Source: Candidatus Dormiibacterota bacterium (lineage in GTDB: Bacteria; Chloroflexota; Dormibacteria; Aeolococcales; Aeolococcaceae). Taken from it: a stretch of DNA of 64,000 nt. Positions 1 through 64,000 of the stretch are shown here, piece by piece. The translations under genes and the position numbers were made by a program. The first letter of the stretch is position 1, and the number at the start of each line of letters is the position of its first letter. The notes beneath the pieces were generated by a model, which did not search any database, was not told where the DNA came from, and saw nothing but the letters and a program-made list of their open reading frames with translations. Location: NCBI GenBank assembly GCA_963709585.1, contig CAVPXI010000006.1, positions 192,001 to 256,000 on the forward strand. The letters run 5' to 3'.

Positions 1-499
1 AGATGAACACCGCGCTGTCAACTCCCTGACCGACGAGCGTCGATCCGATGGTTCGCGTCCAGAGGAAGCGGCCGCTGGTCGCGACCTTCAATCTCGCCAT
101 GACGAACGCGTTGAGAAATTCCCCGAGTAGATATGCGCTCAGCGACGCGAGCACGAGGCGCGGGCTCTCACCGAGCACGCGTGCGTACGCCGCCTGGTCG
201 CTGTAGTGCGGATCGGCGGGAACGGCGATTGCGGCGGCGATGAACAGCACGACGATGATGTTCGCGAAGAAGCCGGTCCAAATCACCGTGCGCGCGACGC
301 GGTATCCCCACACCTCGGTGAGCACGTCCCCGAAGAGATACGCGAGCGGGAAGATCACGATTGCCGCGGGCACCGAGAACGGCCCGACCGCGGCGATCTT
401 GACCGCGAGGATGTTCGATGCCACGAGCGTCGCGACGAAGAGCGATGAGATCGTGAGCAGCAGCGGGCTCGGGGGGCGCGTCGGGTTCGGCGGTGTCAT
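1..499 (-). CDS. Queuosine precursor transporter (VUT/YhhQ family), 3' end outside the window
   Basis: Manual minus-strand translation from ATG 499: MTPPNPTRPPSPLLLTISSLFVATLVASNILAVK...IFPLAYLFGDVLTEVWGYRVARTVIWTGF...SAYLLGEFLNAFVMARLK...FLWTRTIGSTLVGQGVDSAVFI, which carries the typical VUT motifs. Absent from the ORF track because it runs off the edge. Confidence 0.85.
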   Translation of the reverse strand, partial: MTPPNPTRPPSPLLLTISSLFVATLVASNILAVKIAAVGPFSVPAAIVIFPLAYLFGDVLTEVWGYRVARTVIWTGFFANIIVVLFIAAAIAVPADPHYSDQAAYARVLGESPRLVLASLSAYLLGEFLNAFVMARLKVATSGRFLWTRTIGSTLVGQGVDSAVFI

Positions 500-32243: not shown

Positions 32244-33854
<1,611 letters not shown>

Positions 33855-33900
33855 GGTTCCTCCTGGTTTGATCCTCTAGCCTAGGGTTCCAGGAGCTAGT

Positions 33901-33950
33901 TTAGCACTCGGGTGGTCTGACTGCTAGCGGGTGGCAGGGGGGAGTGCTAA
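33901..33950. promoter_or_regulatory. CIRCE (HrcA operator) plus an extra half-site upstream of groEL
   Basis: TTAGCACTC-N9-GACTGCTAG at 33901-33927 and a perfect half-site GAGTGCTAA at 33942-33950; extended -10 TGcTAAACT on the minus strand. Confidence 0.88.
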
Positions 33951-33954
33951 ACGA

Positions 33955-33998
33955 CGGCCGCCGGATCGCACCACCGCTGGTGCGATCCGGAAGGGCCG
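33955..33998 (-). terminator. Strong hairpin downstream of the acidic peptide gene
   Basis: Perfect 13-bp stem CCGGATCGCACCA-ccgc-TGGTGCGATCCGG (33961-33990) plus outer CGGCC/GGCCG pairing; only a weak U-tract. Confidence 0.65.
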
Positions 33999-34019
33999 CC
34001 CATTCCCTTCGGAACTCGG

Positions 34020-34208
34020 TCAGCGACCGGGGTTCTTGACGTGGCCTTCGGTGTCGTCCTCGTCAGGCGTCGCCCGAGGGAAAACCGAGGGCTGCTCGTC
34101 GGGGTCGGCGCTCCTGTTTGGGTACTTGTGTCCGGAGGTGTCCTCTTCGTCGGTCTCGTTGATCCGGACCCCCGGGGCTTCCTGCTCGTCTGCCTTGTCC
34201 GTGCTCAT
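34020..34208 (-). CDS. 62-aa acidic peptide with two D-E-[E/D]-D-T-[S/E]-G-H repeats
   Basis: SD AGGAGA 6 nt before ATG; MSTDKADEQEAPGVRINETDEEDTSGHKYPNRSADPDEQPSVFPRATPDEDDTEGHVKNPGR; own -10 box and 3' hairpin. Confidence 0.75.
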   Translation of the reverse strand: MSTDKADEQEAPGVRINETDEEDTSGHKYPNRSADPDEQPSVFPRATPDEDDTEGHVKNPGR

Positions 34209-34281
34209 TGCCTGTCTCCTGTGGCGGCTGGGCCGCTGCTGTTGTGTTGCCCACATTCTGCGGAATCGAGATGGGGGAGTC

Positions 34282-34320
34282 AGTCGTCCACCTGACAGCT
34301 TCCGTGTCGGCGATCTGACA
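34282..34320. promoter_or_regulatory. Tandem Crp/CooA-type boxes upstream of the peptide gene
   Basis: AGTCG-N6-TGACA (34282-34297) and TGTCG-N6-TGACA (34305-34320, inside the CCGTGTC/GACACGG inverted repeat); minus-strand -10 CAGAAT at 34260-34255. Confidence 0.6.
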
Positions 34321-34361
34321 CGGCGGGGCAGCGACGACAGCGCAGGGAGGAGCCGGCGAGA

Positions 34362-35057
34362 TCAGTCGTGCTGGCCTGCTCTCCGTTGCAGCAGTTCCGG
34401 CTTCCGGATCACGATGCGCCGGCCGTCCAGCTCGACATATCCCAGCCGCTCAAAGGCGTTGAGGACCTGGTTGACGCTCTGCCGCGAACCGCCAACCATG
34501 TTGGCGAGGTCCGACTGAGTCAGATGCAGGTCCAGCGCCCGCCCCCCCGGTACGGGGGTGCCGCGCTCGTCCGCGAGGCGGAGCAGCAGTTTCGCGACGC
34601 GACCGTGCAGGTCCAGGAAGACCAAGTCGGCGGCTTGGTCGGTGAGCCGGCGCACCATCGTTCCCAGCGACCGCAGGAGACGGTCGACCAGCTCGGGCGA
34701 ACCCCGAAGCGCTTCCAGCAACGCAGTTCGACTGATCAGCAACACTGTGGTGGCCTCGACCGCCGCGGCCGATGCCGACCTCAGACCGCCATCGACCGTG
34801 GGCAGCTCACCGAACACCGATGACGGTTCCAGGGTCACGAGCAGCATCTCGTCGCCGTCGGGCGAGCTCCGGTAGACCTTCACGAGGCCGGTGACGACAA
34901 CACACAGTGCGTCACCGGCGTCGTCCTCACGGAAGATGACCTCTCCGCGCGCATACGACCGCCGGACCGCTCTCTCGGCAAGCCGCTCCACGGCGTCCGG
35001 CGGAAGCGTCCCAAAGAGGGAGGTGTTCTGCAGGAGCGCCTCATCGCCGCTGGTCAT
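34362..35057 (-). CDS. Crp/Fnr family transcriptional regulator
   Basis: SD GGAGG; cNMP pocket FGELPTVDGGLRSASA; HTH LTQSDLANMVGGSRQSVNQVL. Confidence 0.93.
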   Translation of the reverse strand: MTSGDEALLQNTSLFGTLPPDAVERLAERAVRRSYARGEVIFREDDAGDALCVVVTGLVKVYRSSPDGDEMLLVTLEPSSVFGELPTVDGGLRSASAAAVEATTVLLISRTALLEALRGSPELVDRLLRSLGTMVRRLTDQAADLVFLDLHGRVAKLLLRLADERGTPVPGGRALDLHLTQSDLANMVGGSRQSVNQVLNAFERLGYVELDGRRIVIRKPELLQRRAGQHD

Positions 35058-35133
35058 TCGACGTGCCTCCCTGGGCGTCACGTTTACAGGCGCGCTCCGA
35101 CGGCGCCGGCGAATTGTAGAGTGCCGGAACACC

Positions 35134-35883
35134 ATGGGTGATCGCGATTCGACGAGAGACGTGCTGGCAGATCTGACACAGCTCGCGGCCGACCTCGGCC
35201 CGGTGCTCCGCCCCCGCCGCGACGAGGAGTTTCTGCAGGCAATCGTCGAAACCGCGCGCCTCGTCTTCGACGCAGCGGCCTGCTCGATCGCGCTCTTCGA
35301 CGAGCGCGAGGAGGAACTCGAGTTCCGTGTCGCCGCTGGGAGTGGCGCCGAGGCGACCATCGGCCTGCGTATCCCCGCAGATCGCGGGATCGCGGGCTGG
35401 GCGCTCATGTCCGGACAGTCGATCGCCGTCGACGACGTCCGCCAGGATCCCCGCTTCGCCGCGGATGTCGCCGAGCGCACCGGCTACGTGCCCAACGCGA
35501 TCATGGCCATGCCGCTGGAGAGCGATCGTCAGACCTTCGGCGTTATCGAGGTGCTCGACCGTCAGCGGGGTGGCGGCGAAGGCGTCGACGACATGGAGTT
35601 GCTCGCCTTGTTCGCCCGACAAGCGACCCTTGCGGTCGAGACATCGCGGATCTTCTCGGGCCTCGGACAGGCGATCCTCGAGTCGGCCGCGCTCGCGACC
35701 CAGCGAGACGACCTTCGCCTCGCCCTTGAGCAGCGAGCCGCTCAGGCACCGCGACCCCAGGCGGAGCTTGCCGAACTCGCGCTGCTCTTTCACGATCTCG
35801 GCGTCCTCGGGCCCGAGGAACGGCGTGTCGCAGCCCGCATTGCAGACGACTTTCTCGCATACGCACGCAAGCAGCGCCGGTGA
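35134..35883 (+). CDS. Stand-alone GAF domain protein
   Basis: AAACSIALFD, GIAGWA, VRQDPRF, AIMAMPL, FGVIEVLD; helical C-terminal extension. Confidence 0.88.
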   Translation: MGDRDSTRDVLADLTQLAADLGPVLRPRRDEEFLQAIVETARLVFDAAACSIALFDEREEELEFRVAAGSGAEATIGLRIPADRGIAGWALMSGQSIAVDDVRQDPRFAADVAERTGYVPNAIMAMPLESDRQTFGVIEVLDRQRGGGEGVDDMELLALFARQATLAVETSRIFSGLGQAILESAALATQRDDLRLALEQRAAQAPRPQAELAELALLFHDLGVLGPEERRVAARIADDFLAYARKQRR

Positions 35884-36686
35884 AGCCGGCCTGGGCGTGG
35901 CAGTTCGACCCGGCGACCCTGCAGCGAGTGCGGGCGTCGCTCCCATCGGCGATCTCACGTGAGTGGGCGTGGGAGGGGAGCACCGGGGCAGGCGTCAAGG
36001 TGGCGGTCATTGACAGCGGGATCGATGCTGCTTATCCCGGAGTCGGGCCCCTCGCCGGTGGTGCGGTCGTCGTTGCCGATGCCGACGCGCCGCGAGGCGC
36101 TCGTGTTATCGAGGGGCCGCACGAGGATCTCTTCGGCCACGGCACGGCGTGTGCCGCGATCATTCGCCAGGCCGCGCCTGATGCCGAGCTGTACAGCATC
36201 AGGGTCCTTGGCGAACGGCTGACGGGACGCGGCATCGTGTTCGCCGAGGGCATGCGCTGGGCGCTCGCTGAAGGCATGCAGGTGCTCAACATGAGTCTGA
36301 GCACGTCGCGCGCAGACTACTTCGGGGTGTTCCACGAGATCGCCGACGACGCCTATTTCCAGGGAGCGATGGTCGTGTGCGCCGTCAACAACGTCCGCGC
36401 GCCAAGCTATCCGTCGCAGTACGCGTCGGTGTTTTCCGTCGCCGCTCACGAGGGACGGGATCCATTTCGCCTCGACTACAACCTCTCGCCACCGGTTGAA
36501 TTCGGAGCGCCTGGGATCGACCTCGAGGTCGGCTGGCTCGGCGGGAGGACCATTCGCGCGACCGGCAACAGCTTCGCGGCGCCGCACATCGCCGGATTGA
36601 TCGCTCGCATCCTCGGCAAGCATCCGGCGCTGACTCCGTTTCAGATGAAGACGGTCCTGATGGCGCTGGCGGACAACGCCTCGTAG
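35880..36686 (+). CDS. S8 (subtilisin-like) serine peptidase, apparently cytoplasmic
   Basis: Catalytic triad motifs VIDSG, HGTAC, GNSFAAPH; no signal peptide; GTGA overlap with the GAF gene. Confidence 0.92.
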   Translation: MKPAWAWQFDPATLQRVRASLPSAISREWAWEGSTGAGVKVAVIDSGIDAAYPGVGPLAGGAVVVADADAPRGARVIEGPHEDLFGHGTACAAIIRQAAPDAELYSIRVLGERLTGRGIVFAEGMRWALAEGMQVLNMSLSTSRADYFGVFHEIADDAYFQGAMVVCAVNNVRAPSYPSQYASVFSVAAHEGRDPFRLDYNLSPPVEFGAPGIDLEVGWLGGRTIRATGNSFAAPHIAGLIARILGKHPALTPFQMKTVLMALADNAS

Positions 36687-36701
36687 TCCGCGTCTGCCGC
36701 T

Positions 36702-36717
36702 TGTCGCTCTGCTGACA
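36702..36717. promoter_or_regulatory. Crp/CooA-type box upstream of a cNMP-binding gene
   Basis: TGTCG-CTCTGC-TGACA, centred about -42.5 relative to the -10 GACAAT (36740-36745). Confidence 0.55.
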
Positions 36718-36752
36718 GACATTGCACCCCCGTTTCGCTGACAATGCGAGAC

Positions 36753-37178
36753 ATGACTGACAAGAAAACGCTGGTCAACCTGCTGAGTCGCAATCAACTC
36801 TTCGACGAGCTGAACAAGAAGGATGTCCTCGCGCTGATCAACTCGGCGAAGGAAGTTGACCACCGCGAGGGTCAGATGATCGTGGTCGAGGGGCATCCCG
36901 GAGTCGGTTTTCATCTGCTTCTTCAGGGCACCGCGATCGTGAGCAGAAATGGCCGAAAGCTCCGGACGCTGGGGCCTGGCGAGACGTTCGGCGATATCGC
37001 GGTCATCGACGGAGGACCTCGCAGTGCGTCGGTGCAAGCAGCGACCGCGCTCCGCACCCTGTCTCTGCCGCCATGGGAGTTCAAACCTCTGCTCCTGGAG
37101 CACCCGCGGATCGCCTACAGGCTGCTCGTCAAGCTCTGCACGCTGCTCCGAGAGGCCGAGAAGCGGCCGCCGCTCTAG
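36753..37178 (+). CDS. Stand-alone cyclic nucleotide-binding protein 1
   Basis: LGPGETFGDIAVIDGGPRSASVQA; no HTH; alternative start at 36744. Confidence 0.9.
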   Translation: MTDKKTLVNLLSRNQLFDELNKKDVLALINSAKEVDHREGQMIVVEGHPGVGFHLLLQGTAIVSRNGRKLRTLGPGETFGDIAVIDGGPRSASVQAATALRTLSLPPWEFKPLLLEHPRIAYRLLVKLCTLLREAEKRPPL

Positions 37179-37219
37179 TCGCCTCGGGGCTGTGAACGCG
37201 GGGCTGATGCGTTCACACG

Positions 37220-40200
37220 TCAGGCACGCGCTTGTTGAGCCTCGGCCGCCGCTCCGGCGTCGAGCATGAGGGCGTCAACACGTTCGATCCACGGCGCGGC
37301 GGCGAGTTCGACGAATGACGTCCGCGCGGGTACGAACAACGCTTCGGCCTCGCCGCGCCGGCCACGATGCACGAGTGTGTCGCCGAGTTCCAATCGTGAG
37401 ACGGCGACCCAGAACGGCATCTGCCGCTGCTGAAACGCTGCGATCGCAGCGAGCGATTCTCGCATCGCGTCCTCTTCACGTCCCTCGAGCTCATCGAGGC
37501 GCGCGCGGAACCGCAGGATATGGGCATGCACGATCGGCCACACCGCGAGCGGGAAGCGTTCGGTTACCGCCTCGAGTAGCCGGCGTACCATCTTGAGGTC
37601 GCCCACGGCGAAAGCGGCTTCCACCGCCTCGACGATCGCCCAGCGCGAACCGTCGACAAAGTCCGAGGCGCCGCTGAAACGCTTTACGACGTCACCCATC
37701 AGCGCAAGGGCTTCACCGCTGCGCCCTTGCGCGCGGAGAATCGCGGAGCTCGCGGCGTCATGCGAGAGTTGATACTCGGGTCCCGCTCGCGCGCAGATGT
37801 CGGCCAAACGCTCGACGAGCCTGCGCGCATCGGGCTCCTCCCCGCGCCACACGTGGGGCCACGCCGCGAAGACCAGCTCGGCTCCGAGCAGCAAGTCCAC
37901 CACCACCACTTCTTTGGCAAGCAAGTCGGCCACCACGCCGCTGGCTTCATCCCAACGACCGAGGTCCACCAGCACGGGTATCCGCCCGATGAGAAATTGG
38001 ATCTCGTCTCGACGCAGTCCCATCAACCGTGCGAGGTCGAGCGCTGCGGCGGTGTATTCTGCCGCGCGCGCGGGTTCGAAACCCTGTAAAGAGGCAGCCA
38101 GGTTGTTATACGCACGCAACGCCGCTCCGTGAAGATCCGACGCAAGAGCCTGGTCGAGCGCACACGTCAGCAGGGCACGCGCCTCCTCGTGCCGTCCGCG
38201 ACCGCCGAGGATGAGTTCCTTGGTATTGACCGCCTGGCAGAACACCTGCGCATGTCCGTGTCGCTCGGCGAAGTCCAGGGCAAGTTCGACCCGCTCCATG
38301 GCGACGACGCCGCTGCGGCCGGACAGAACCATCCGGCGCGCGACCTCCGCCGCGACCACCGCCAGGTCCTCCTCGTGGTTGGCATCGCCAAACTCCACCG
38401 CGCTGAGCTCAACGAACGCGCGCTCCATCCGATCCGCGGCTTGGTCACGCTTCAATTCGTGAGCATCGATTTCGGCCAGGGTGATCGATGTCCGAGCAGC
38501 CGCGCCGAGACGACCGGCCGCCGCGTGCAGCGCAACCGCCTCGTCGAGATGCCGCCTGGCCTTTTGTGCATGGACCTGCTGCCACGCCATCTGTCCGGCG
38601 CGAGCGTGCAGCGTGGCCAGGTCAGCGGCGTCAGCGAGCTCAAGCGCACGTTCGTAGTAGTGCTCGGCGGACGCGGCGGCAGCGAGCGATGCTGCATGGT
38701 CGCCTGCTCGCACCAGCGCATCACGTGCACGCTGGCGGAGTCCCCCTGCGTCGAGGGCATCAACGTCAGCCTCGAACGCCTCGAGGAGGTGCGAGGCGAT
38801 GACTTCGGCAACTCCTTCCTCCTCGCTCCACGCGCTCTCCAGGTATGCGGCCGCGCTCAGGTGGCGCACCTTGCGATCGCGTCGGGACAGTGTCCCGTAC
38901 GCGACGCTCCGCACCAGGTCTTGCACAAAGACATACTGGCCGCGCTCGGGTGATCTCGGGTCCGACTGGATGGCAAGCAGATCTTTGCTGACCAGCGTGG
39001 CGAGGCCCGGCTCGACTGTGTCCGTCGCGAGCGCCGTGACCGCCCGCAGCCCTGCGGCGGTAAAGGATTTGCCGAGGACCGCCGCATCCTGCAACAGCTG
39101 ACGCTCGGCACCACCGATGCTGTCCAGCCGTGCGGCGATCAGAGCGTGGAGGGTCTCGGGGACCTCCAGCGAGTTCGAGCGATCCCTCGACGTGGAACGT
39201 GCCGCCCCTCGCGACGAGGAGGCCGCGGTCCATCAGCATCCGCACCGTTTCGACTGCGTAGAGAGGCACGCCCGCGGCGCGCTCGAGAATGCGCGCGCTC
39301 AGGTCGTCGGGAAGGCCTGGTGCCATGCCGGCCAGCAGCTGCGACATGGCCTCAGGCGGAAGCGGATCCAGAGAGAGCGAGGTGGACCCTCGCTTGCCCG
39401 TGCCCCAACCTGAACGACGATCGGCCATCTCCGGGCGCGCCAGCGTGATCACAAGGATCGGGGAGTTGCGCGACCACTCGAGGAGGTATTCGATGAAGTC
39501 AAGCAGACCGCTATCGGCCCATTGCAGATCCTCGAACACAAGGACGGTGAGGTTCTCTGCAGCGAGGCGCTCGAAGAAGAAGCGCCACGCCGCGTAGAGA
39601 TCGCGCGGATCCGTGGCGACGCGCTCCTCGAGACCGACGAGGTGCGCGAGGCGGGGTTCCACCCACCGCCGCTCCTCACCCGGCTCGACGAATTCCTCGA
39701 CGGTACGCCGCAACTTCTCACGCGCCAACTCCGGTGGCTCGTTGTCGAGAATGCCGGCACGCATACGCACCATCTCGCTCAGCGCCCAGTAGGCGACACC
39801 ATCTCCGTAGGCGAGACAGCGCCCGCGATGCCACCAGATGGGTTCCGTGACCCCGTCGACGTACTTGAAGAACTCCCAACCGAGGCGCGACTTCCCGACG
39901 CCGGCAAGGCCGACGATCGAGAGCAGGCGCGCCGTGCGCTCCTCGCCGGTCGCGTGCAGGAACTCCTTGATCAGTCGCAACTCCCGGTCGCGTCCGACGA
40001 ACGGCGGTTCCAGTCCGGTCGGGCGGAGCGCCCCTCCGGCCGCCGCAACGACGCGTTGCGCTCGCCACAGACGCTCCGGTTCAGGCTTTCCCTTGAGCTC
40101 GTGCACCCCAGTGTCCTCGTAAGCGATCGCGGCTTCCGTGGCGACGCGAGTCCCGTCACCGACATAGACAGCTCCGGGCTCAGCCGCTGCCTGCACGCGA

Positions 40201-40799
40201 GATGCAGTGTTGATGAGGTCGCCGGCGACCATCCCCTCGCCTCTCACTCCGACGCTGACCGCGACTTCGCCGGTCATCAGCCCCGCTCGGGCCTGCAGAC
40301 CGGCCGCACCGACCTCGTCGCCAAATGCGACGACGGCATCGACCAGCTCGAGCGCTGCGCGCACCGCTCGCTCGGCGTCGTTTTCTTGACTGGTGGGCAC
40401 GCCCCACACGGCCATGACAGCGTCGCCGATGAACTTTTCAACCTGGCCACCGTAGCGAGCGATGATCGTGCGCGCGGTGTCGAAGTAGCGACTCAGGAGT
40501 TCGCGGACGTCCTCAGCGTCGCGCTGCTGAGAGAGTGGTGTGAATCCCACCAGGTCGGCAAACAGCACGGTCACATGGCGGCGTTCGGTGAGACGCGCCG
40601 GCTCGATATGGGCTGGCGCAGATGAGGGGCTCGTCCGCGAGGGTTCCGCCGACAGCTGTGCGCCGCACCCGCCGCAAAAACGCTCGTCCTCGTCGTTCGG
40701 CGCCCCGCAGGCGGGGCAAGGCCGGTCCAGAGAGGAGCCACATTGGCCGCAAAAGCGCCGGCCCGCCCGGTTTGCGGAACCGCAGGCGGTGCAGGTCAT
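37220..40799 (-). CDS. Double zinc ribbon / class III nucleotidyl cyclase / STAND ATPase / TPR-like protein, split by a +1 insertion at ~39174 (probable error)
   Basis: Four CxxC; FADLVGFT, EKFIGDAVM, GDLINTASR; Walker A GLAGVGKS, Walker B VFEDLQWAD; restoring GACTC gives LDSLEVPETLHALIAARLD continuing into ORF 37220..39094. Confidence 0.9.
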
Positions 40800-60447: not shown

Positions 60448-62649
60448 TCAGGCGAGGACAGCCTCGCGCACCGGTGCGGGAAGGTCAGCGCGAACGTGTG
60501 TCCCCGCACCCGGTTGGGAGACCACCTCGACAGTGCCGCCGAGGGCCTCGACACGATCGACCATGTTGGTGAGCCCTGAGCCAGGCTTCACGGTCGTGGT
60601 GTCGAACCCCGATCCGTCGTCGGCAACCTCGAAGGTCAGCGCGCCGGCGGTACCCCGGAGGCGGACCATGACGTGTCGTGCCCCGGCATATTTCTGGACG
60701 TTCTGCAGCGCTTCGAGGACACAGAAGTACACGGCCGCCTCGACGTCCTGTGGATAGCGCTCCACGTCTTCCGCATCGACGGTGATCGGTAACACCGCTT
60801 TGCGCGCCTGCAACTCGAGCGCAACCACCAACCCCTTGTCGGCCAGCAGCGGTGGATAGATTCCGCGTGCGAGGTCGCGCAACGTCTCGAGCACTTCGTC
60901 GGCGTCGGCCTTCAGCTGGGTCACGGCGGCTTTCGCCTGGTCCGGCTTCGAGTCCACCAGCGACTGCGCAAGCCCGAGATTGACCTTGAGCGCGACCAGG
61001 TGTCGCTGTGCTCCGTCGTGCAAGTTGCGTTCGAGACGGCGACGTTCCTCGTCCTGAGCCCGCACCAGCCGCTGGCGCGAGGCGCGCAGTTCGTCGAGGC
61101 GGTCTCGGAGCTCAGCAGCAAGACCCACGTTTCTCAAGACCAACCCTGCCTGGTGCGCGAGGTCGTCGATGAGCTTCTGCTCGGTGGGGGTCACGGGGTC
61201 ACCCCTGCGCTTGACGATGCTCAGCGCGCCGAGCAAGCGGCCCTGATGCTCCACGGGAACTGCGGTCGTCGCGCCCAGGATCTCGGGCAGCGAGCCGGTA
61301 GACATCGGCAGTGGTGCTGGAGACGACGCCTCCGCATCCGGATGCGTCGCTGCAGGATGCAGGGTTGCCGGACCCTTGAGCCACACGGTCGCCGACTGAG
61401 CACCGGTCGCCTCCTGGAGCACACGGGCCATGCGTGGCAAGACCTCGTCCGCTGCATATGCCTCCGCGACCTGGCCCGAGAAAGCGGTGAGCACCTCGTA
61501 TGGGGTGGCGCGATTCCCGTACACGAGCCGGTTGGCAATCTTCTGGACACGCTCACGAACGGGCTGGAACCCAACCGCAACGATGATTGTCGCGACGATC
61601 GACAGCCAGAGATTCGGCTGGCCACCGCTACCAACCAGCGTGCCGATGCCGACCGCGATACCGATGTAGACGGCGGTGATGAATGCCGCAAGGACGCCGT
61701 AGACGAGGGTTCGGCTGATGATGACGTCGATGTCATAGAGGCGGTATTTCAGGACGGCAACACCGATTCCCGTGGGTACTCCCAGCACGGCAACTGACAC
61801 CAGCAATGCGACACCGGTGCCGACCAGTGGACCTGGATTGGTAAAGACCGTGCTGGGAAGGAAGTTGACGAGAAGGATCGTCACCACCAGGAACAGCGCC
61901 GCCGAGGCGACCCACTTGATCTGGTGGCGCGTGTCGGAATCGGCACCACGAAGGCGCAGGAAGACGGCCACGATGACGGCTGCGCTGAACAGGTTCGAGA
62001 GCACGTTCCACAGAGTGCTCAGCGTGTTCACCAGCGGTGCTGAACCGGGAATGGCCAGGACACTCGACGGGGCGGCGACCCCCGGTTGGGAACTCGAAAT
62101 AATGCCCAGCTCTCCGGGAGTCGGATTGATGACAGACAAGACAAGCCCCGACAGTCCCACTCCCAGAACCGCATACATCAGCCAGCGCAACTTCGGCGAA
62201 AGCAGATGGCCGTTGGGAAAGACGAGCAGCATGATGGTGAACAACACCGCCACATTCCCGCCCGGGGCATTCCAGAATGCTGAGAGCAGCAGAATGTAGC
62301 CGCCGAAGCCGTCGTGCGCGTCCAAAAGGACCGAGCCTACAAGCGAAGAGAGCGACCCGAGAGCGAGAACACCAGATCCGCAGATGCACAGCCAGCCCAC
62401 CGGGTTGGCGGGTCTGCGCATTGCGATAACGGCGCCGACGATCGTAAACGAACAAAAAGGGAATACAAAAGCAGCGCTCAGGGCACCCGTCGCCTGAAAC
62501 AATGCCGGCGGGGTGAGCGGAGAGTAGAAAACCACTCCGAAAGCCACGAACATCGCAACGATGACGGCGAGGAGCACCCATGCGGTTGCCGGCCTCGCGA
62601 GCCGTCGCGTGGCCGAAGGTTCCATGCGCGGCGTCGCGATAGCAGACAT
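60448..62649 (-). CDS. Membrane sensor histidine kinase (HisKA_3) with GAF-like domain
   Basis: Multi-TM N-terminus; ERNLHDGAQ, EALQNVQKY, DDGSGF, GSGLTNM. Confidence 0.93.
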   Translation of the reverse strand: MSAIATPRMEPSATRRLARPATAWVLLAVIVAMFVAFGVVFYSPLTPPALFQATGALSAAFVFPFCSFTIVGAVIAMRRPANPVGWLCICGSGVLALGSLSSLVGSVLLDAHDGFGGYILLLSAFWNAPGGNVAVLFTIMLLVFPNGHLLSPKLRWLMYAVLGVGLSGLVLSVINPTPGELGIISSSQPGVAAPSSVLAIPGSAPLVNTLSTLWNVLSNLFSAAVIVAVFLRLRGADSDTRHQIKWVASAALFLVVTILLVNFLPSTVFTNPGPLVGTGVALLVSVAVLGVPTGIGVAVLKYRLYDIDVIISRTLVYGVLAAFITAVYIGIAVGIGTLVGSGGQPNLWLSIVATIIVAVGFQPVRERVQKIANRLVYGNRATPYEVLTAFSGQVAEAYAADEVLPRMARVLQEATGAQSATVWLKGPATLHPAATHPDAEASSPAPLPMSTGSLPEILGATTAVPVEHQGRLLGALSIVKRRGDPVTPTEQKLIDDLAHQAGLVLRNVGLAAELRDRLDELRASRQRLVRAQDEERRRLERNLHDGAQRHLVALKVNLGLAQSLVDSKPDQAKAAVTQLKADADEVLETLRDLARGIYPPLLADKGLVVALELQARKAVLPITVDAEDVERYPQDVEAAVYFCVLEALQNVQKYAGARHVMVRLRGTAGALTFEVADDGSGFDTTTVKPGSGLTNMVDRVEALGGTVEVVSQPGAGTHVRADLPAPVREAVLA

Positions 62650-64000
62650 CAAGCGGCCGCCGGAGACACGACGTCGACGGATAACGTCCCGCTGATGGTA
62701 GTTCCACGGTTCGGGCTTGACGTCAAGTTTAGCGAGCCGCCGAGCGCGTCAAGACGGTCTGCCATATTGACGAGTCCAGCACCCTTCCTCGCGATCGCAG
62801 TGTCGAACCCCACGCCGTCGTCACTGATCTCGAAGGTCAGGCGCTCACGTTGCCCGCGAAGGCGCACTTCGACGTGTGATGCCCGTGCGTACTTCTGCAC
62901 GTTCTGCAAGGCTTCGAGCACGCAGAAGTAGACGGTCGCCTCGACATCCTGCGTGTAACGCTCCACGGCCTCAGCGCGCACACTCACGGAGACGATCGCC
63001 TTGCGCGCCTGCAAGTCCAGCGCCACCACCAGCCCCTTGTCGGCGAGGAGCGGCGGGTAGATCCCGCGCGCCAGGTCACGCAATGTCTCGAGCGCCTCGT
63101 CGGCGTCGCCCTTGAGCTGTTCCAGCGTCGCCATGGCTTTCGGGGGATCGCGACCAAGGAGCATCTCGGCAAGGCCCAGCTTCACCTTGAGCGCGACGAG
63201 GTGTTGCTGAGCGCCGTCGTGCAGGTTGCGTTCGAGCCGGCGGCGTTCGAGGTCCTGCGCCTGCACCAGCCGTTGGCGTGACGCCCTGAGTTCGTCGAGG
63301 CGCACCTGGAGGTCAGCGCTGAGGCCAACGTTCTTGAGCACCAGTCCCGCCTGATGGGCCAGGTCGTCGACGAGCTTCTCTTCGATCGGCGTCAGCGTTT
63401 CGCCGCGACGTTTGGTCACGCTCAGCGCACCGAGCAGTTCCCCTTGGTGGCGCACCTCCACCGCCCTGGTGGCGTCGCCAAGAGCGGGCAGCGTCCCGTT
63501 ATTCATGGGCAACGCTTGGTGGGTGCCCATGCTCTCTGGATGCGTTGCTGCTGGTCGGAGTTCGGTCAAACCTCGCAACCACACGGTCGCTGACTCAGCC
63601 CCGGCCCCTTCTTGGAGCACACGGGCCATACGTGGCAGTACATCGTCCGCTGCATAGGTCTCCGCCACCCGGCCCGAGAACTCGCTGAGTACCTCGTACG
63701 GTGTCGCCCGCCGGCCGTACACCAGCCGGTTCGCCACCTTCTGGACCTGCTCCCGCACCGGCTGGAACCCGATCGCCACGATCGCCGTGGCCAGGATCGA
63801 GAGCGCCAGGTTGGGCTTGCCCCCGCTCCCCACCAGGGTCCCGATCCCCACCGCAATGCCCACGTACACCGCTGTGATGAACACGGCCAGTGAGCCGTAC
63901 ACCAGCGTCCGGCTGATGACAATGTCGATGTCGTAGAGACGGTACTTGAAGATGGCGATCCCGGCCGCGATCGGCACCAGGATGCCGAATCCGATCGCGA
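62649..64000 (-). CDS. Paralogous membrane sensor histidine kinase (5' part outside the window)
   Basis: KYRLYDID, ERNLHDGAQQ, EALQNVQKY, DDGVGF; TGATG overlap with the downstream paralog. Confidence 0.92.
   Translation of the reverse strand, partial: AIGFGILVPIAAGIAIFKYRLYDIDIVISRTLVYGSLAVFITAVYVGIAVGIGTLVGSGGKPNLALSILATAIVAIGFQPVREQVQKVANRLVYGRRATPYEVLSEFSGRVAETYAADDVLPRMARVLQEGAGAESATVWLRGLTELRPAATHPESMGTHQALPMNNGTLPALGDATRAVEVRHQGELLGALSVTKRRGETLTPIEEKLVDDLAHQAGLVLKNVGLSADLQVRLDELRASRQRLVQAQDLERRRLERNLHDGAQQHLVALKVKLGLAEMLLGRDPPKAMATLEQLKGDADEALETLRDLARGIYPPLLADKGLVVALDLQARKAIVSVSVRAEAVERYTQDVEATVYFCVLEALQNVQKYARASHVEVRLRGQRERLTFEISDDGVGFDTAIARKGAGLVNMADRLDALGGSLNLTSSPNRGTTISGTLSVDVVSPAAA

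What the first reader, a model, noticed from the sequence alone, without database searches (positions are those of the whole stretch)
34255..36745. CooA-type operator boxes at class II spacing match the local Crp recognition helix
Seen: TGTCG-N6-TGACA at 34305-34320 and 36702-36717, and AGTCG-N6-TGACA at 34282-34297. Taking the first base of each putative -10 box (CAGAAT 34260-34255 on minus; GACAAT 36740-36745) as -12, the box centres fall at about -41.5 and -64.5 for the peptide gene and about -42.5 for the cNMP-binding gene. The Crp helix reads S-R-Q-S-V-N-Q. Known: E. coli CRP (R-E) binds TGTGA-N6-TCACA, whereas CooA (R-Q) binds TGTCA-N6-TGACA, and -41.5 is the class II activation position. 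Inference: these boxes define the regulon of the local Crp and tie the peptide to the cNMP circuit.
Basis: partly seen in the sequence, partly recalled or inferred. Interest (0 to 1): 0.75.

Follow-up and report, generated by a model that had tools for sequence, protein, structure and literature searches.

The report
Conserved Crp operator boxes, Dormibacterota promoters
Three 16-base palindromes next to a cyclic-nucleotide-type regulator gene are real, evolutionarily conserved promoter elements that most likely are that regulator's binding sites, a tidy but ordinary kind of gene switch in an uncultured soil phylum.

Summary
The three boxes are at the stated coordinates and the position arithmetic is right. 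Counts within the window are weak evidence: 2 exact matches against 0.40 expected, and no enrichment at one mismatch.

The comparative evidence is strong. The window resembles Candidatus Dormibacterota genomes. In 20 of 20 loci that reach far enough, two boxes exactly 23 bp apart precede the same small acidic DDTEGH-repeat protein gene. They are followed by a -35-like xTGACx, a -10 whose A(-11) and T(-7) never vary, a ribosome-binding site and the start codon. The flanking DNA is not conserved. The third box recurs after the S8 peptidase stop in 9 of 21 loci with the same box/-35/-10 register.

The local Crp is a cNMP-type regulator closest to the solved chain 3d0s_A (recalled as mycobacterial Crp), not to CooA. 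Its helix SRQSVNQ is invariant in the 20 intact orthologues. Published work links Gln at the Glu181 position to TGTCG-type operators.

Best reading: the local Crp binds these boxes and controls the two promoters, probably as a class II/tandem activator. Binding, the transcription start and the sign of regulation are untested. This is a new member of a known kind.

The parts
34305..34320 (-). Distal operator box. On the gene strand it reads TGTCAGATCGCCGACA. Its centre is about -64.5 from the inferred start.
   Evidence: Present in 20 of 20 loci. TGTC is invariant and GAC(A/G/C) nearly so.
34282..34297 (-). Proximal operator box. On the gene strand it reads TGTCAGGTGGACGACT. Its centre is about -41.5.
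   Evidence: It lies exactly 23 bp from the distal box in 20 of 20 loci. Its last base is T in 19 of 20.
34278..34283 (-). -35-like hexamer CTGACT. It overlaps the last 2 bases of the proximal box and lies 17 nt from the -10.
   Evidence: Sequence. The GAC just after the box is conserved in 18 of 20 loci. The core promoter matches only 8 of 12 consensus positions and was not called by the consensus scan.
34255..34260 (-). -10 hexamer CAGAAT. The inferred transcription start is A at 34248, within a conserved CA(A/T)CA.
   Evidence: A at position 2 and T at position 6 are invariant in 20 of 20; the hexamer is CAGAAT in 12 of 20. The start site is inferred, not mapped.
34221..34239 (-). Inverted repeat GCGG..CCGC in the 5' UTR, just before the ribosome-binding site.
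   Evidence: 4 pairs, nearly invariant, no covariation. Function unknown.
34020..34208 (-). Target gene 1: a 62-aa acidic protein with DDTEGH repeats.
   Evidence: an ORF with GGAG and a start codon in 20 of 20 loci, carrying 2-6 repeats. No Pfam or NCBIfam family. 13 related clusters; the only names given are 'hypothetical protein'.
34362..35057 (-). Crp/Fnr-family regulator, 231 aa, with recognition helix SRQSVNQ.
   Evidence: Pfam cNMP_binding 1.6e-22 and HTH_Crp_2 2.1e-18. Best solved chain is 3d0s_A at E 1.5e-42. The helix is invariant in 20 of 20 intact orthologues.
36702..36717 (+). Third operator box TGTCGCTCTGCTGACA. Its centre is about -42.5.
   Evidence: A matrix trained only on the double boxes finds it at the syntenic place in 9 of 21 loci (sequences).
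36716..36721 (+). -35-like hexamer CAGACA. It overlaps the last 2 bases of the box and lies 18 nt from the -10.
   Evidence: GACA follows the box in 7 of 7 loci shown.
36740..36745 (+). -10 hexamer GACAAT. The inferred start is at 36752/36753, giving a leaderless or nearly leaderless mRNA.
   Evidence: a NANNAT hexamer lies 21-22 nt after the box in 7 of 7 loci. Only the window and L001 have the ATG 7 nt after it.
36753..37178 (+). Target gene 2: a stand-alone cNMP-binding protein of 141 aa. The conserved start is MTDKK at 36753, not the ATG at 36744.
   Evidence: Pfam cNMP_binding 6.1e-15. The orthologues' start codons align at 36753.
35134..36686 (+). GAF-domain protein (35134-35883) and S8 peptidase (35880-36686), divergent from crp. 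This is context; there is no box upstream.
   Evidence: Both lie beside crp in 20 of 21 loci. The divergent region has no TGTC box.
37220..40799 (-). Class III adenylate/guanylate cyclase fused to an AAA_16 domain and a long C-terminal part. It is a likely source of the cyclic nucleotide. In the window it is split over two frames.
   Evidence: Guanylate_cyc 1.7e-21, AAA_16 1.7e-21. The cyclase-bearing part is found in 9 of 21 loci.

Best explanation
The three boxes are operator sites of the adjacent Crp/Fnr-family regulator. That regulator is a cNMP-binding Crp whose recognition helix carries Arg-Gln, with Gln at the Arg185-equivalent position, in place of Arg-Glu. It therefore reads TGTC(A/G) half-sites rather than TGTGA.

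One dimer sits at about -41.5, flush against a weak -35-like xxGACx element, at two promoters:
- the promoter of a small acidic DDTEGH-repeat protein, where a second dimer sits 23 bp upstream at about -64.5;
- the promoter of a stand-alone cNMP-binding protein.

When loaded with cyclic nucleotide, probably cAMP from the class III cyclase often encoded nearby, the regulator most likely recruits RNA polymerase to these weak core promoters (class II, or tandem class III-like, activation).

Shown: the boxes, their conservation, their fixed register with conserved -35/-10-like elements, the invariant helix, and the conserved cNMP phosphate-binding residues.

Inferred: that this protein binds the boxes, the transcription starts, the effector, and activation rather than repression.
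For: 1. Geometry. The sites are 5-N6-5 inverted repeats, the Crp/Fnr format.

2. Conservation at target gene 1. The double box, with 23-bp spacing, is upstream of the same small gene in 20 of 20 loci that reach far enough. The crp orthologues at these loci are 74-98% identical to the window's. The commonest base in the arms is held by 93-100% of sequences, against 47-56% in the flanks and spacer.

3. The boxes belong to the promoter. They travel with the small gene when other DNA separates it from crp: L002, L012 and L016, and 3.7 kb away in L018.

4. Independent recovery of the third box. A matrix trained only on the double boxes finds 11 further hits of 13 bits or more in about 174 kb. Nine lie at one syntenic spot after the S8 stop codon and point at the downstream gene. 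All 7 loci shown have the same box / GAC / 21-22 nt / NANNAT register.

5. The -10 element. Its A and T are invariant in 20 of 20. The core promoter matches only 8 of 12 consensus positions and was not called by the consensus scan, which fits dependence on an activator.

6. The helix. GGSRQSVNQVL is invariant in 20 of 20 intact orthologues. Of the closest 120 protein clusters, 117 carry RQS[VI]N[QH].

7. Published residue-to-base code. CooA sites have the consensus TGTCGGCnnGCCGACA, including TGTCaGCcAGCCGACA (PMC545781). E. coli CRP with Gln181/Thr185 activates an operator with positions 7-8 changed from GA to CG (PMC2677863).

8. Effector pocket. FGE...RSA is kept in the 20 intact orthologues and aligns with the solved chain 3d0s_A.

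9. Genomic context. A cyclase, a GAF protein, cNMP-binding proteins and MFS-cNMP fusion proteins lie in the neighbourhood.
Against: There are no binding, transcription-start or expression data.

Within the window the motif is only marginally enriched: 2 against 0.40 expected, with 5 of 100 shuffles reaching 2, and no enrichment at one mismatch.

Helix and boxes are both invariant, so no co-variation ties them together. Linkage to crp could simply reflect synteny of the small gene.

Cmr, with Pro rather than Gln, binds almost the same motif (PMC4705688). The box therefore does not point to a single helix type.

At M. tuberculosis whiB1, tandem Crp sites 21 bp apart act in opposite senses: the site at -58.5 activates and the site at -37.5 represses (PMC2844151). 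Geometry alone does not give the sign of regulation.

A centre at -64.5 is 23 bp from the proximal site, not 21. By my recollection this is not one of the standard E. coli class I positions.

No box lies upstream of crp itself or of the GAF-S8 genes.

A fourth strong matrix hit, at 62119-62134 with 17.5 bits, lies inside a coding ORF. In 30 composition-matched simulations the best score reached 17 or more in 5 of them.
Confidence: 0.65

Rival explanations
1. The same Crp binds the boxes, but the proximal site at -41.5 represses, or the pair gives a biphasic response. In that case the upstream site would activate at low occupancy and the promoter-proximal site would shut the promoter at high occupancy.
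For: The whiB1 promoter of M. tuberculosis has exactly such tandem Crp sites, at -58.5 (activating) and -37.5 (repressing), 21 bp apart (PMC2844151, abstract and passages). The proximal box overlaps the -35-like element by 2 bp. The proximal box carries a conserved imperfect half-site, GACT, in 19 of 20 loci, which suggests lower affinity.
Against: The third promoter has a single box in the same register with its -35-like GAC and no upstream site. A repressor-only site there would leave a core promoter that matches only 8 of 12 consensus positions without an activator. The fixed box-to-(-35) register at two unrelated promoters suggests a precise contact with polymerase.
Confidence: 0.2
2. The boxes are operators of another, unlinked transcription factor that recognises a TGTC-N8-GACA palindrome. 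The neighbouring Crp would then be coincidental.
For: No binding data exist. Helix and boxes show no co-variation. The boxes follow the small gene, not crp, when the two are separated.
Against: The 5-N6-5 format and the TGTC(A/G) half-site match the published specificity for Arg-Gln helices. crp lies within 4 kb of the boxes in all 20 loci. The second target is itself a cNMP-binding protein. No other DNA-binding regulator was seen among the conserved neighbours.
Confidence: 0.12
3. The boxes are chance palindromes or RNA-level hairpins, for example a crp terminator, with no operator function.
For: Window counts are weak. Each box could form a short hairpin.
Against: The boxes are present in 20 of 20 loci with invariant arms while the flanks drift. 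The arms are invariant rather than co-varying. The A/C mismatch at the fifth position of the two half-sites is itself conserved in the distal and proximal boxes, which is the opposite of what an RNA stem would show. The boxes stay with the small gene when it is moved away from crp.
Confidence: 0.03

Closest known systems
CooA operators of Rhodospirillum and Desulfovibrio (consensus TGTCGGCnnGCCGACA)
   Same: Same 16-bp 5-N6-5 palindrome with TGTC(G/A) half-sites. The D. desulfuricans cooSC site TGTCaGCcAGCCGACA (PMC545781) is close to the distal-box consensus here, TGTCAGnTCGCCGACA. By design of the CRP7 mutant, the CooA model has Gln at the Glu181 position (PMC2677863).
   Different: The regulator here is not a CooA. 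CooA chains score E 3.1e-13 to 1.8e-10, against 1.5e-42 for the best Crp chain. The cNMP phosphate-binding residues are kept. The genes directly downstream of the boxes are a small repeat protein and a cNMP-binding protein, not CO-dehydrogenase genes. The residue at the Arg185 position is Gln here, against Thr in the CooA-based mutant.
Mycobacterium tuberculosis Cmr (Rv1675c)
   Same: The consensus from SELEX and footprinting is TGTCANNNNNN(C/T)GACA (PMC4705688). That is the same box class, in a Crp/Fnr protein linked to cAMP signalling.
   Different: Cmr has Pro at the Glu position (PMC4705688); here it is Gln. Sequence similarity is weak (5w5b_A, E 9.2e-10).
Crp-type solved chains 3d0s_A, 3i54_A and 4cyd_A (recalled as M. 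tuberculosis Rv3676 and Corynebacterium GlxR)
   Same: These are the closest solved relatives, collinear over residues 7-227 without gaps (E 1.5e-42). They share the cNMP pocket residues. Tandem sites at a promoter have a precedent at whiB1 (PMC2844151).
   Different: Their helix reads SRETVNK (alignment). CRPMt binds NGTGNNANNNNNCACA (PMC2844151). Here the helix is SRQSVNQ and the boxes read TGTC. The organism names for these entries are recalled; the tool output does not give them.
Engineered E. coli CRP Gln181/Thr185 (CRP7) with operator Om7
   Same: It is an experimental demonstration that Glu181 to Gln, with a change at position 185, lets a cAMP-type CRP activate from an operator with positions 7-8 changed from GA to CG, that is TGTCG (PMC2677863).
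   Different: It is a synthetic mutant and was active only at low expression. The protein here is natural, conserved across a clade, and has Gln rather than Thr at position 185.

Membership tests
Crp/Fnr-family operator site | 16-bp two-fold symmetric site, 5-N6-5 | tested here: met
Crp/Fnr-family operator site | A Crp/Fnr regulator (cNMP-binding-like domain plus C-terminal HTH_Crp) is encoded in the genome, here adjacent | tested here: met
   PF00027 at 1.6e-22 and PF13545 at 2.1e-18..
Crp/Fnr-family operator site | Half-site sequence agrees with the residues at the Arg180/Glu181/Arg185 positions | tested here: met
   The helix is R-Q-S-V-N-Q. The agreement is by analogy, not by measurement.
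Crp/Fnr-family operator site | Direct, sequence-specific binding by the regulator | not testable with these tools
   Needs EMSA, footprinting or DAP-seq.
Class II Crp-dependent promoter | Site centred near -41.5 from the transcription start and abutting or overlapping the -35 region | tested here: inconclusive
   Centres of -41.5 and -42.5 follow only if the conserved hexamers are the -10 elements. No transcription start data exist.
Class II Crp-dependent promoter | Transcription depends on the regulator (activation) | not testable with these tools
   The weak core promoter, 8 of 12 consensus positions and not called, is suggestive only.
CooA (CO-sensing haem regulator) regulon | The regulator is a CooA orthologue | tested here: not met
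   CooA chains score 3.1e-13 to 1.8e-10 against 1.5e-42 for the best Crp chain. The cNMP pocket FGE..RSA is kept. Haem ligands were not examined residue by residue.
CooA (CO-sensing haem regulator) regulon | Targets are coo (CO dehydrogenase / hydrogenase) operons | tested here: not met
   The genes downstream of the boxes are a DDTEGH-repeat protein and a cNMP-binding protein.
Cmr-type regulator | Pro at the Glu181-equivalent position together with a TGTCA-N6-YGACA motif | tested here: not met
   The motif is met. The residue is Gln, not Pro (PMC4705688).

The most novel reading that the evidence does not exclude
The locus could be a self-contained, cyclic-nucleotide-gated peptide module of Dormibacterota. 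In this reading the Gln-helix Crp switches on a tandem-repeat DDTEGH precursor protein. The divergently encoded GAF-domain protein and S8 peptidase then sense a signal and cut that precursor into repeat-unit peptides or a metal-binding product. The co-regulated stand-alone cNMP-binding protein would buffer or feed back on the signal. The evidence is only suggestive: conserved synteny of crp, GAF, S8 and the repeat protein in 19-20 of 21 loci, and a repeat number that varies from 2 to 6. No call tested any protease-substrate relation.
Probability: 0.1. Interest if true: 0.65.

Novelty: new member of a known kind. Interest (0 to 1): 0.4.

Why it matters
This gives a clean, testable regulator-operator-target assignment in Candidatus Dormibacterota, a phylum without cultured, genetically tractable members. 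I found no paper on transcription-factor sites in this phylum: one search returned 0 papers, and among the 12 of 26 papers listed none concerned this.

It also supplies a natural counterpart to the engineered Glu181-to-Gln specificity switch. At least 54 of 128 cluster representatives among the closest relatives carry Arg-Gln at these positions. The TGTC-type box may therefore be the rule for a sizeable and, as far as my searches show, uncharacterised branch of cNMP-type Crp proteins.

It singles out a small DDTEGH-repeat protein of unknown function as the main conserved output of a local cNMP circuit.

The mechanism itself, a Crp dimer abutting the -35 region, is textbook.

Tried and rejected
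- Window-only statistics are too weak to decide. The exact motif is 2 against 0.40 expected and there is no enrichment at one mismatch.
- The fourth matrix hit, at 62119-62134 (17.5 bits), lies inside the histidine-kinase ORF 60448-62652 and was treated as chance. Its orthologues could not be checked.
- The lower hits at window 16-31, 38891 and 56275 were not followed.
- Off-target hits in L008 (position 1340) and L010 (position 1341) were not followed; the L010 hit lies inside an MFS-cNMP coding ORF.
- Autoregulation: no box in the crp/GAF divergent region.
- RNA reading: Rfam found only a tRNA in the window. The 5' UTR inverted repeat shows no covariation.
- The consensus promoter scan found no promoter in 33850-37250.
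- The small protein has no Pfam or NCBIfam family, and the Atlas search gave only sub-threshold leads of 0.83.
Names came only: Dormibacterota above about 70% identity, and some Actinomycetota metagenome-assembled genomes near 60%.
- Literature: (Crp + TGTCG + cAMP) listed 12 of 39 papers, none on a Gln-helix Crp. Supplements of the cited papers were not opened.
Full report
**What is in the sequence**

- TGTCGGCGATCTGACA at 34305-34320;
- AGTCGTCCACCTGACA at 34282-34297;
- TGTCGCTCTGCTGACA at 36702-36717.

The hexamers are also there: CAGAAT (reverse complement of 34255-34260) and GACAAT (36740-36745). With the first base of each hexamer taken as -12, the box centres fall at -41.5, -64.5 and -42.5, as stated.

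The first two boxes lie between the stop codon of a Crp/Fnr gene (34362-35057, minus strand) and a small ORF on the same strand. The third lies just after the stop codon of an S8 peptidase gene and just before a cNMP-binding protein gene.

Pfam gives these assignments:
- Crp: cNMP_binding (1.6e-22) and HTH_Crp_2 (2.1e-18);
- 35134-35883: a GAF-domain protein;
- 35880-36686: Peptidase_S8;
- 36753-37178: a cNMP-binding protein;
- 37220-40799: a class III cyclase with an AAA_16 domain;
- the small ORF: no family.

**Chance**

Inside the 64-kb window the evidence is thin. TGTCR-N6-YGACA occurs twice against 0.40 expected, and 5 of 100 shuffles reach two. With one mismatch there are 6 matches against 9.71 expected. 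The AGTCG box is therefore unremarkable on counts alone.

A matrix built only from orthologous loci ranks the three boxes first in the window, at 18.8, 18.6 and 18.2 bits. A fourth hit follows at 62119-62134 (17.5 bits). That hit lies inside a histidine-kinase ORF. In 30 composition-matched simulations the best score reached 17 or more in 5.

**Orthologous loci**

A scan of one genome per species with the Crp protein returned 28 loci. Twenty of them (L001-L020, 74-98% identity) are titled Candidatus Dormibacterota/Dormibacteraeota/Dormibacteria metagenome-assembled genomes. L009 ends 84 nt after crp and cannot be judged.

In the window and all 19 other loci, the pattern TGTC-N8-GACN-N7-NGTC-N8-GACN occurs once on the crp strand. 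L005 also matched on the reverse strand at the same place.

The alignment is a textbook footprint:
- The 20 nt upstream are unconserved; the commonest base is held by 47% of sequences on average.
- The arms TGTC, GACA, TGTC and GACT score 93-100%.
- The 7-nt spacer between boxes scores 56%.

Downstream of the boxes the following elements are conserved:
- GAC directly after the box, in 18 of 20 loci. With the last two box bases it makes a -35-like CTGACT.
- A 17-nt spacer.
- A hexamer whose A at position 2 and T at position 6 are invariant; it reads CAGAAT in 12 of 20.
- A conserved CA(A/T)CA where the transcription start would fall.
- A GCGG..CCGC inverted repeat.
- GGAG and the start codon.

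In L002, L012 and L016 other DNA separates crp from the boxes. In L018 they are 3.7 kb away. In every case the boxes stay directly upstream of the small gene. They are therefore part of that gene's promoter, not the 3' end of crp.

**The small gene**

It encodes an acidic protein built from repeats ending in (D/E)D(T/V)EGH. There are 2 to 6 repeats depending on the locus, and the protein always ends a few residues after the last repeat. It has no Pfam or NCBIfam family. It has 13 related clusters, and the only names given are 'hypothetical protein'. A hairpin follows its stop codon, and groEL downstream has its own CIRCE-like halves. groEL is adjacent only in the window and L001.

**The third box**

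A matrix trained only on the double boxes finds 11 further hits of 13 bits or more in the 21 loci, about 174 kb in total. Nine are at one syntenic spot just after the S8 stop codon: the window, L001, L003, L004, L005, L009, L012, L013 and L017.

A cNMP-protein orthologue follows S8 in 9 loci.
- In 7 of them the box lies within 160 nt of its start.
- L006 has a degenerate copy.
- In L017 the box is 557 nt upstream.
- In L012 the same box instead precedes a 649-aa ORF that I read, from its sequence alone, as a lipoprotein or solute-binding protein.

In the 7 loci the box is followed by GACA and, 21-22 nt after the box, by a NANNAT hexamer. Two unrelated promoters thus share one box/-35/-10 register. 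In the window and L001 the ATG lies 7 nt after the hexamer, which suggests a leaderless transcript. The other loci have a leader with a ribosome-binding site.

**The regulator**

The best solved relatives are collinear over residues 7-227: 3d0s_A at E 1.5e-42, with 3i54, 4byy and 4cyd close behind. I recall these as M. tuberculosis Crp and Corynebacterium GlxR. CooA chains score only 3.1e-13 to 1.8e-10, and Cmr scores 9.2e-10.

The cNMP pocket motif FGE...RSA is kept in the 20 intact orthologues.

The recognition helix GGSRQSVNQVL is invariant in 20 of 20 intact orthologues; L020 is interrupted. The aligned helix of 3d0s_A reads GASRETVNKAL.

Tallies among relatives:
- Of the 120 closest 90%-identity clusters, 117 carry RQS[VI]N[QH]. 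Names are Dormibacterota at high identity and Actinomycetota MAGs near 60%.
- Of the 150 best 50%-identity representatives, 128 of 195-300 aa were aligned and 22 were dropped for length. At least 54 have Arg-Gln, at least 40 Arg-Glu and at least 16 Arg-Pro.

The helix type is thus a clade character, not a local oddity.

**What is in print**

- PMC545781 (passages and tables) gives the CooA consensus TGTCGGCnnGCCGACA and the site TGTCaGCcAGCCGACA.
- PMC2677863 (passages and section 11) shows that E. coli CRP carrying Gln181/Thr185, modelled on Desulfovibrio CooA, activates an operator with positions 7-8 changed from GA to CG.
- PMC4705688 (passages) shows that M. tuberculosis Cmr binds TGTCANNNNNN(C/T)GACA although it has Pro at that position.
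- PMC2844151 (abstract and passages) shows tandem Crp sites 21 bp apart at whiB1, where the upstream site activates and the site at -37.5 represses.
- Searches for transcription-factor sites or cAMP work in Dormibacterota found nothing relevant. A search for Crp with TGTCG listed 12 of 39 papers, none on a Gln-helix Crp.

**Mechanism**

I conclude that the boxes are operators in two conserved promoters and that the adjacent Arg-Gln Crp is by far the likeliest binder.

The weak core promoters match only 8 of 12 consensus positions and were not called. The box-to-(-35) register is fixed at two promoters. Both points favour class II-type activation. At the small gene a second dimer 23 bp upstream probably helps occupancy of the imperfect proximal site or contacts polymerase.

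The whiB1 precedent keeps repression or a biphasic response alive as a rival. The effector is probably cAMP. The evidence is the intact pocket, and a cyclase-bearing ORF in 9 of 21 loci. This is inferred.

**Classification**

The DNA motif is CooA/Cmr-like. The protein is neither a CooA nor a Cmr. It is a member of a Gln-helix branch of cNMP-type Crp proteins. This is a new member of a known kind. It is solid and useful for an uncultured phylum, but mechanistically ordinary.

Noticed in passing
window 33901-33950: The two CIRCE half-sites TTAGCACTC and GAGTGCTAA lie upstream of groEL but are separated by 32 nt instead of the canonical 9. No such pair occurred in 100 shuffles.
   Followed up: partly
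window 37220-40799 (minus strand), junction near 39070-39094: The zinc-ribbon / class III cyclase / AAA_16 gene is split into two overlapping ORFs in different frames (38766-40799 and 37220-39094). In L002 the two parts match in one frame. This is either a frameshift (pseudogene) or an assembly error.
   Followed up: partly
window 34221-34239 (5' UTR of the small gene): A nearly invariant GCGG..CCGC inverted repeat lies between the inferred transcription start and the ribosome-binding site in 20 loci. It shows no covariation. It could be a second operator or a stabilising hairpin.
   Followed up: partly
window 35113-35136 (crp/GAF divergent region): The element GTAGAGTGCCGGAACACCATG is strongly conserved: a TAGAGT -10-like hexamer 11 nt before the GAF start codon. 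This suggests a very short leader for the GAF-S8 operon. There is no TGTC box here.
   Followed up: partly
window 34020-34208 and orthologues in L001-L020: The small protein is made of 2-6 copies of a unit ending in (D/E)D(T/V)EGH, often preceded by SDPDFGSQ-PS. Copy number differs between close relatives. It has no known family.
   Followed up: partly
L006 1-1803, L009 2-1801, L010 610-2358, L014 502-2349, L015 502-2358: These are large ORFs that look like membrane transporters (MFS-like by my reading) fused to a C-terminal cNMP-binding domain, sitting beside the same locus. They are further cNMP signalling parts in the neighbourhood.
   Followed up: no
window 62119-62134: AGTCGGATTGATGACA followed by GAC scores 17.5 bits with the box matrix but lies inside the histidine-kinase ORF 60448-62652. 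It is probably chance.
   Followed up: partly
window 35880-36686: The S8 peptidase is small (268 aa). Its best NCBIfam similarities, both below cut-off, are to the QhpE maturation protease (1e-30) and to type VII mycosin (1.3e-27).
   Followed up: no
L020 4001-4694: The crp orthologue in L020 is interrupted near residue 68, matching in two pieces in different frames. The double box and the small gene are nevertheless intact.
   Followed up: no
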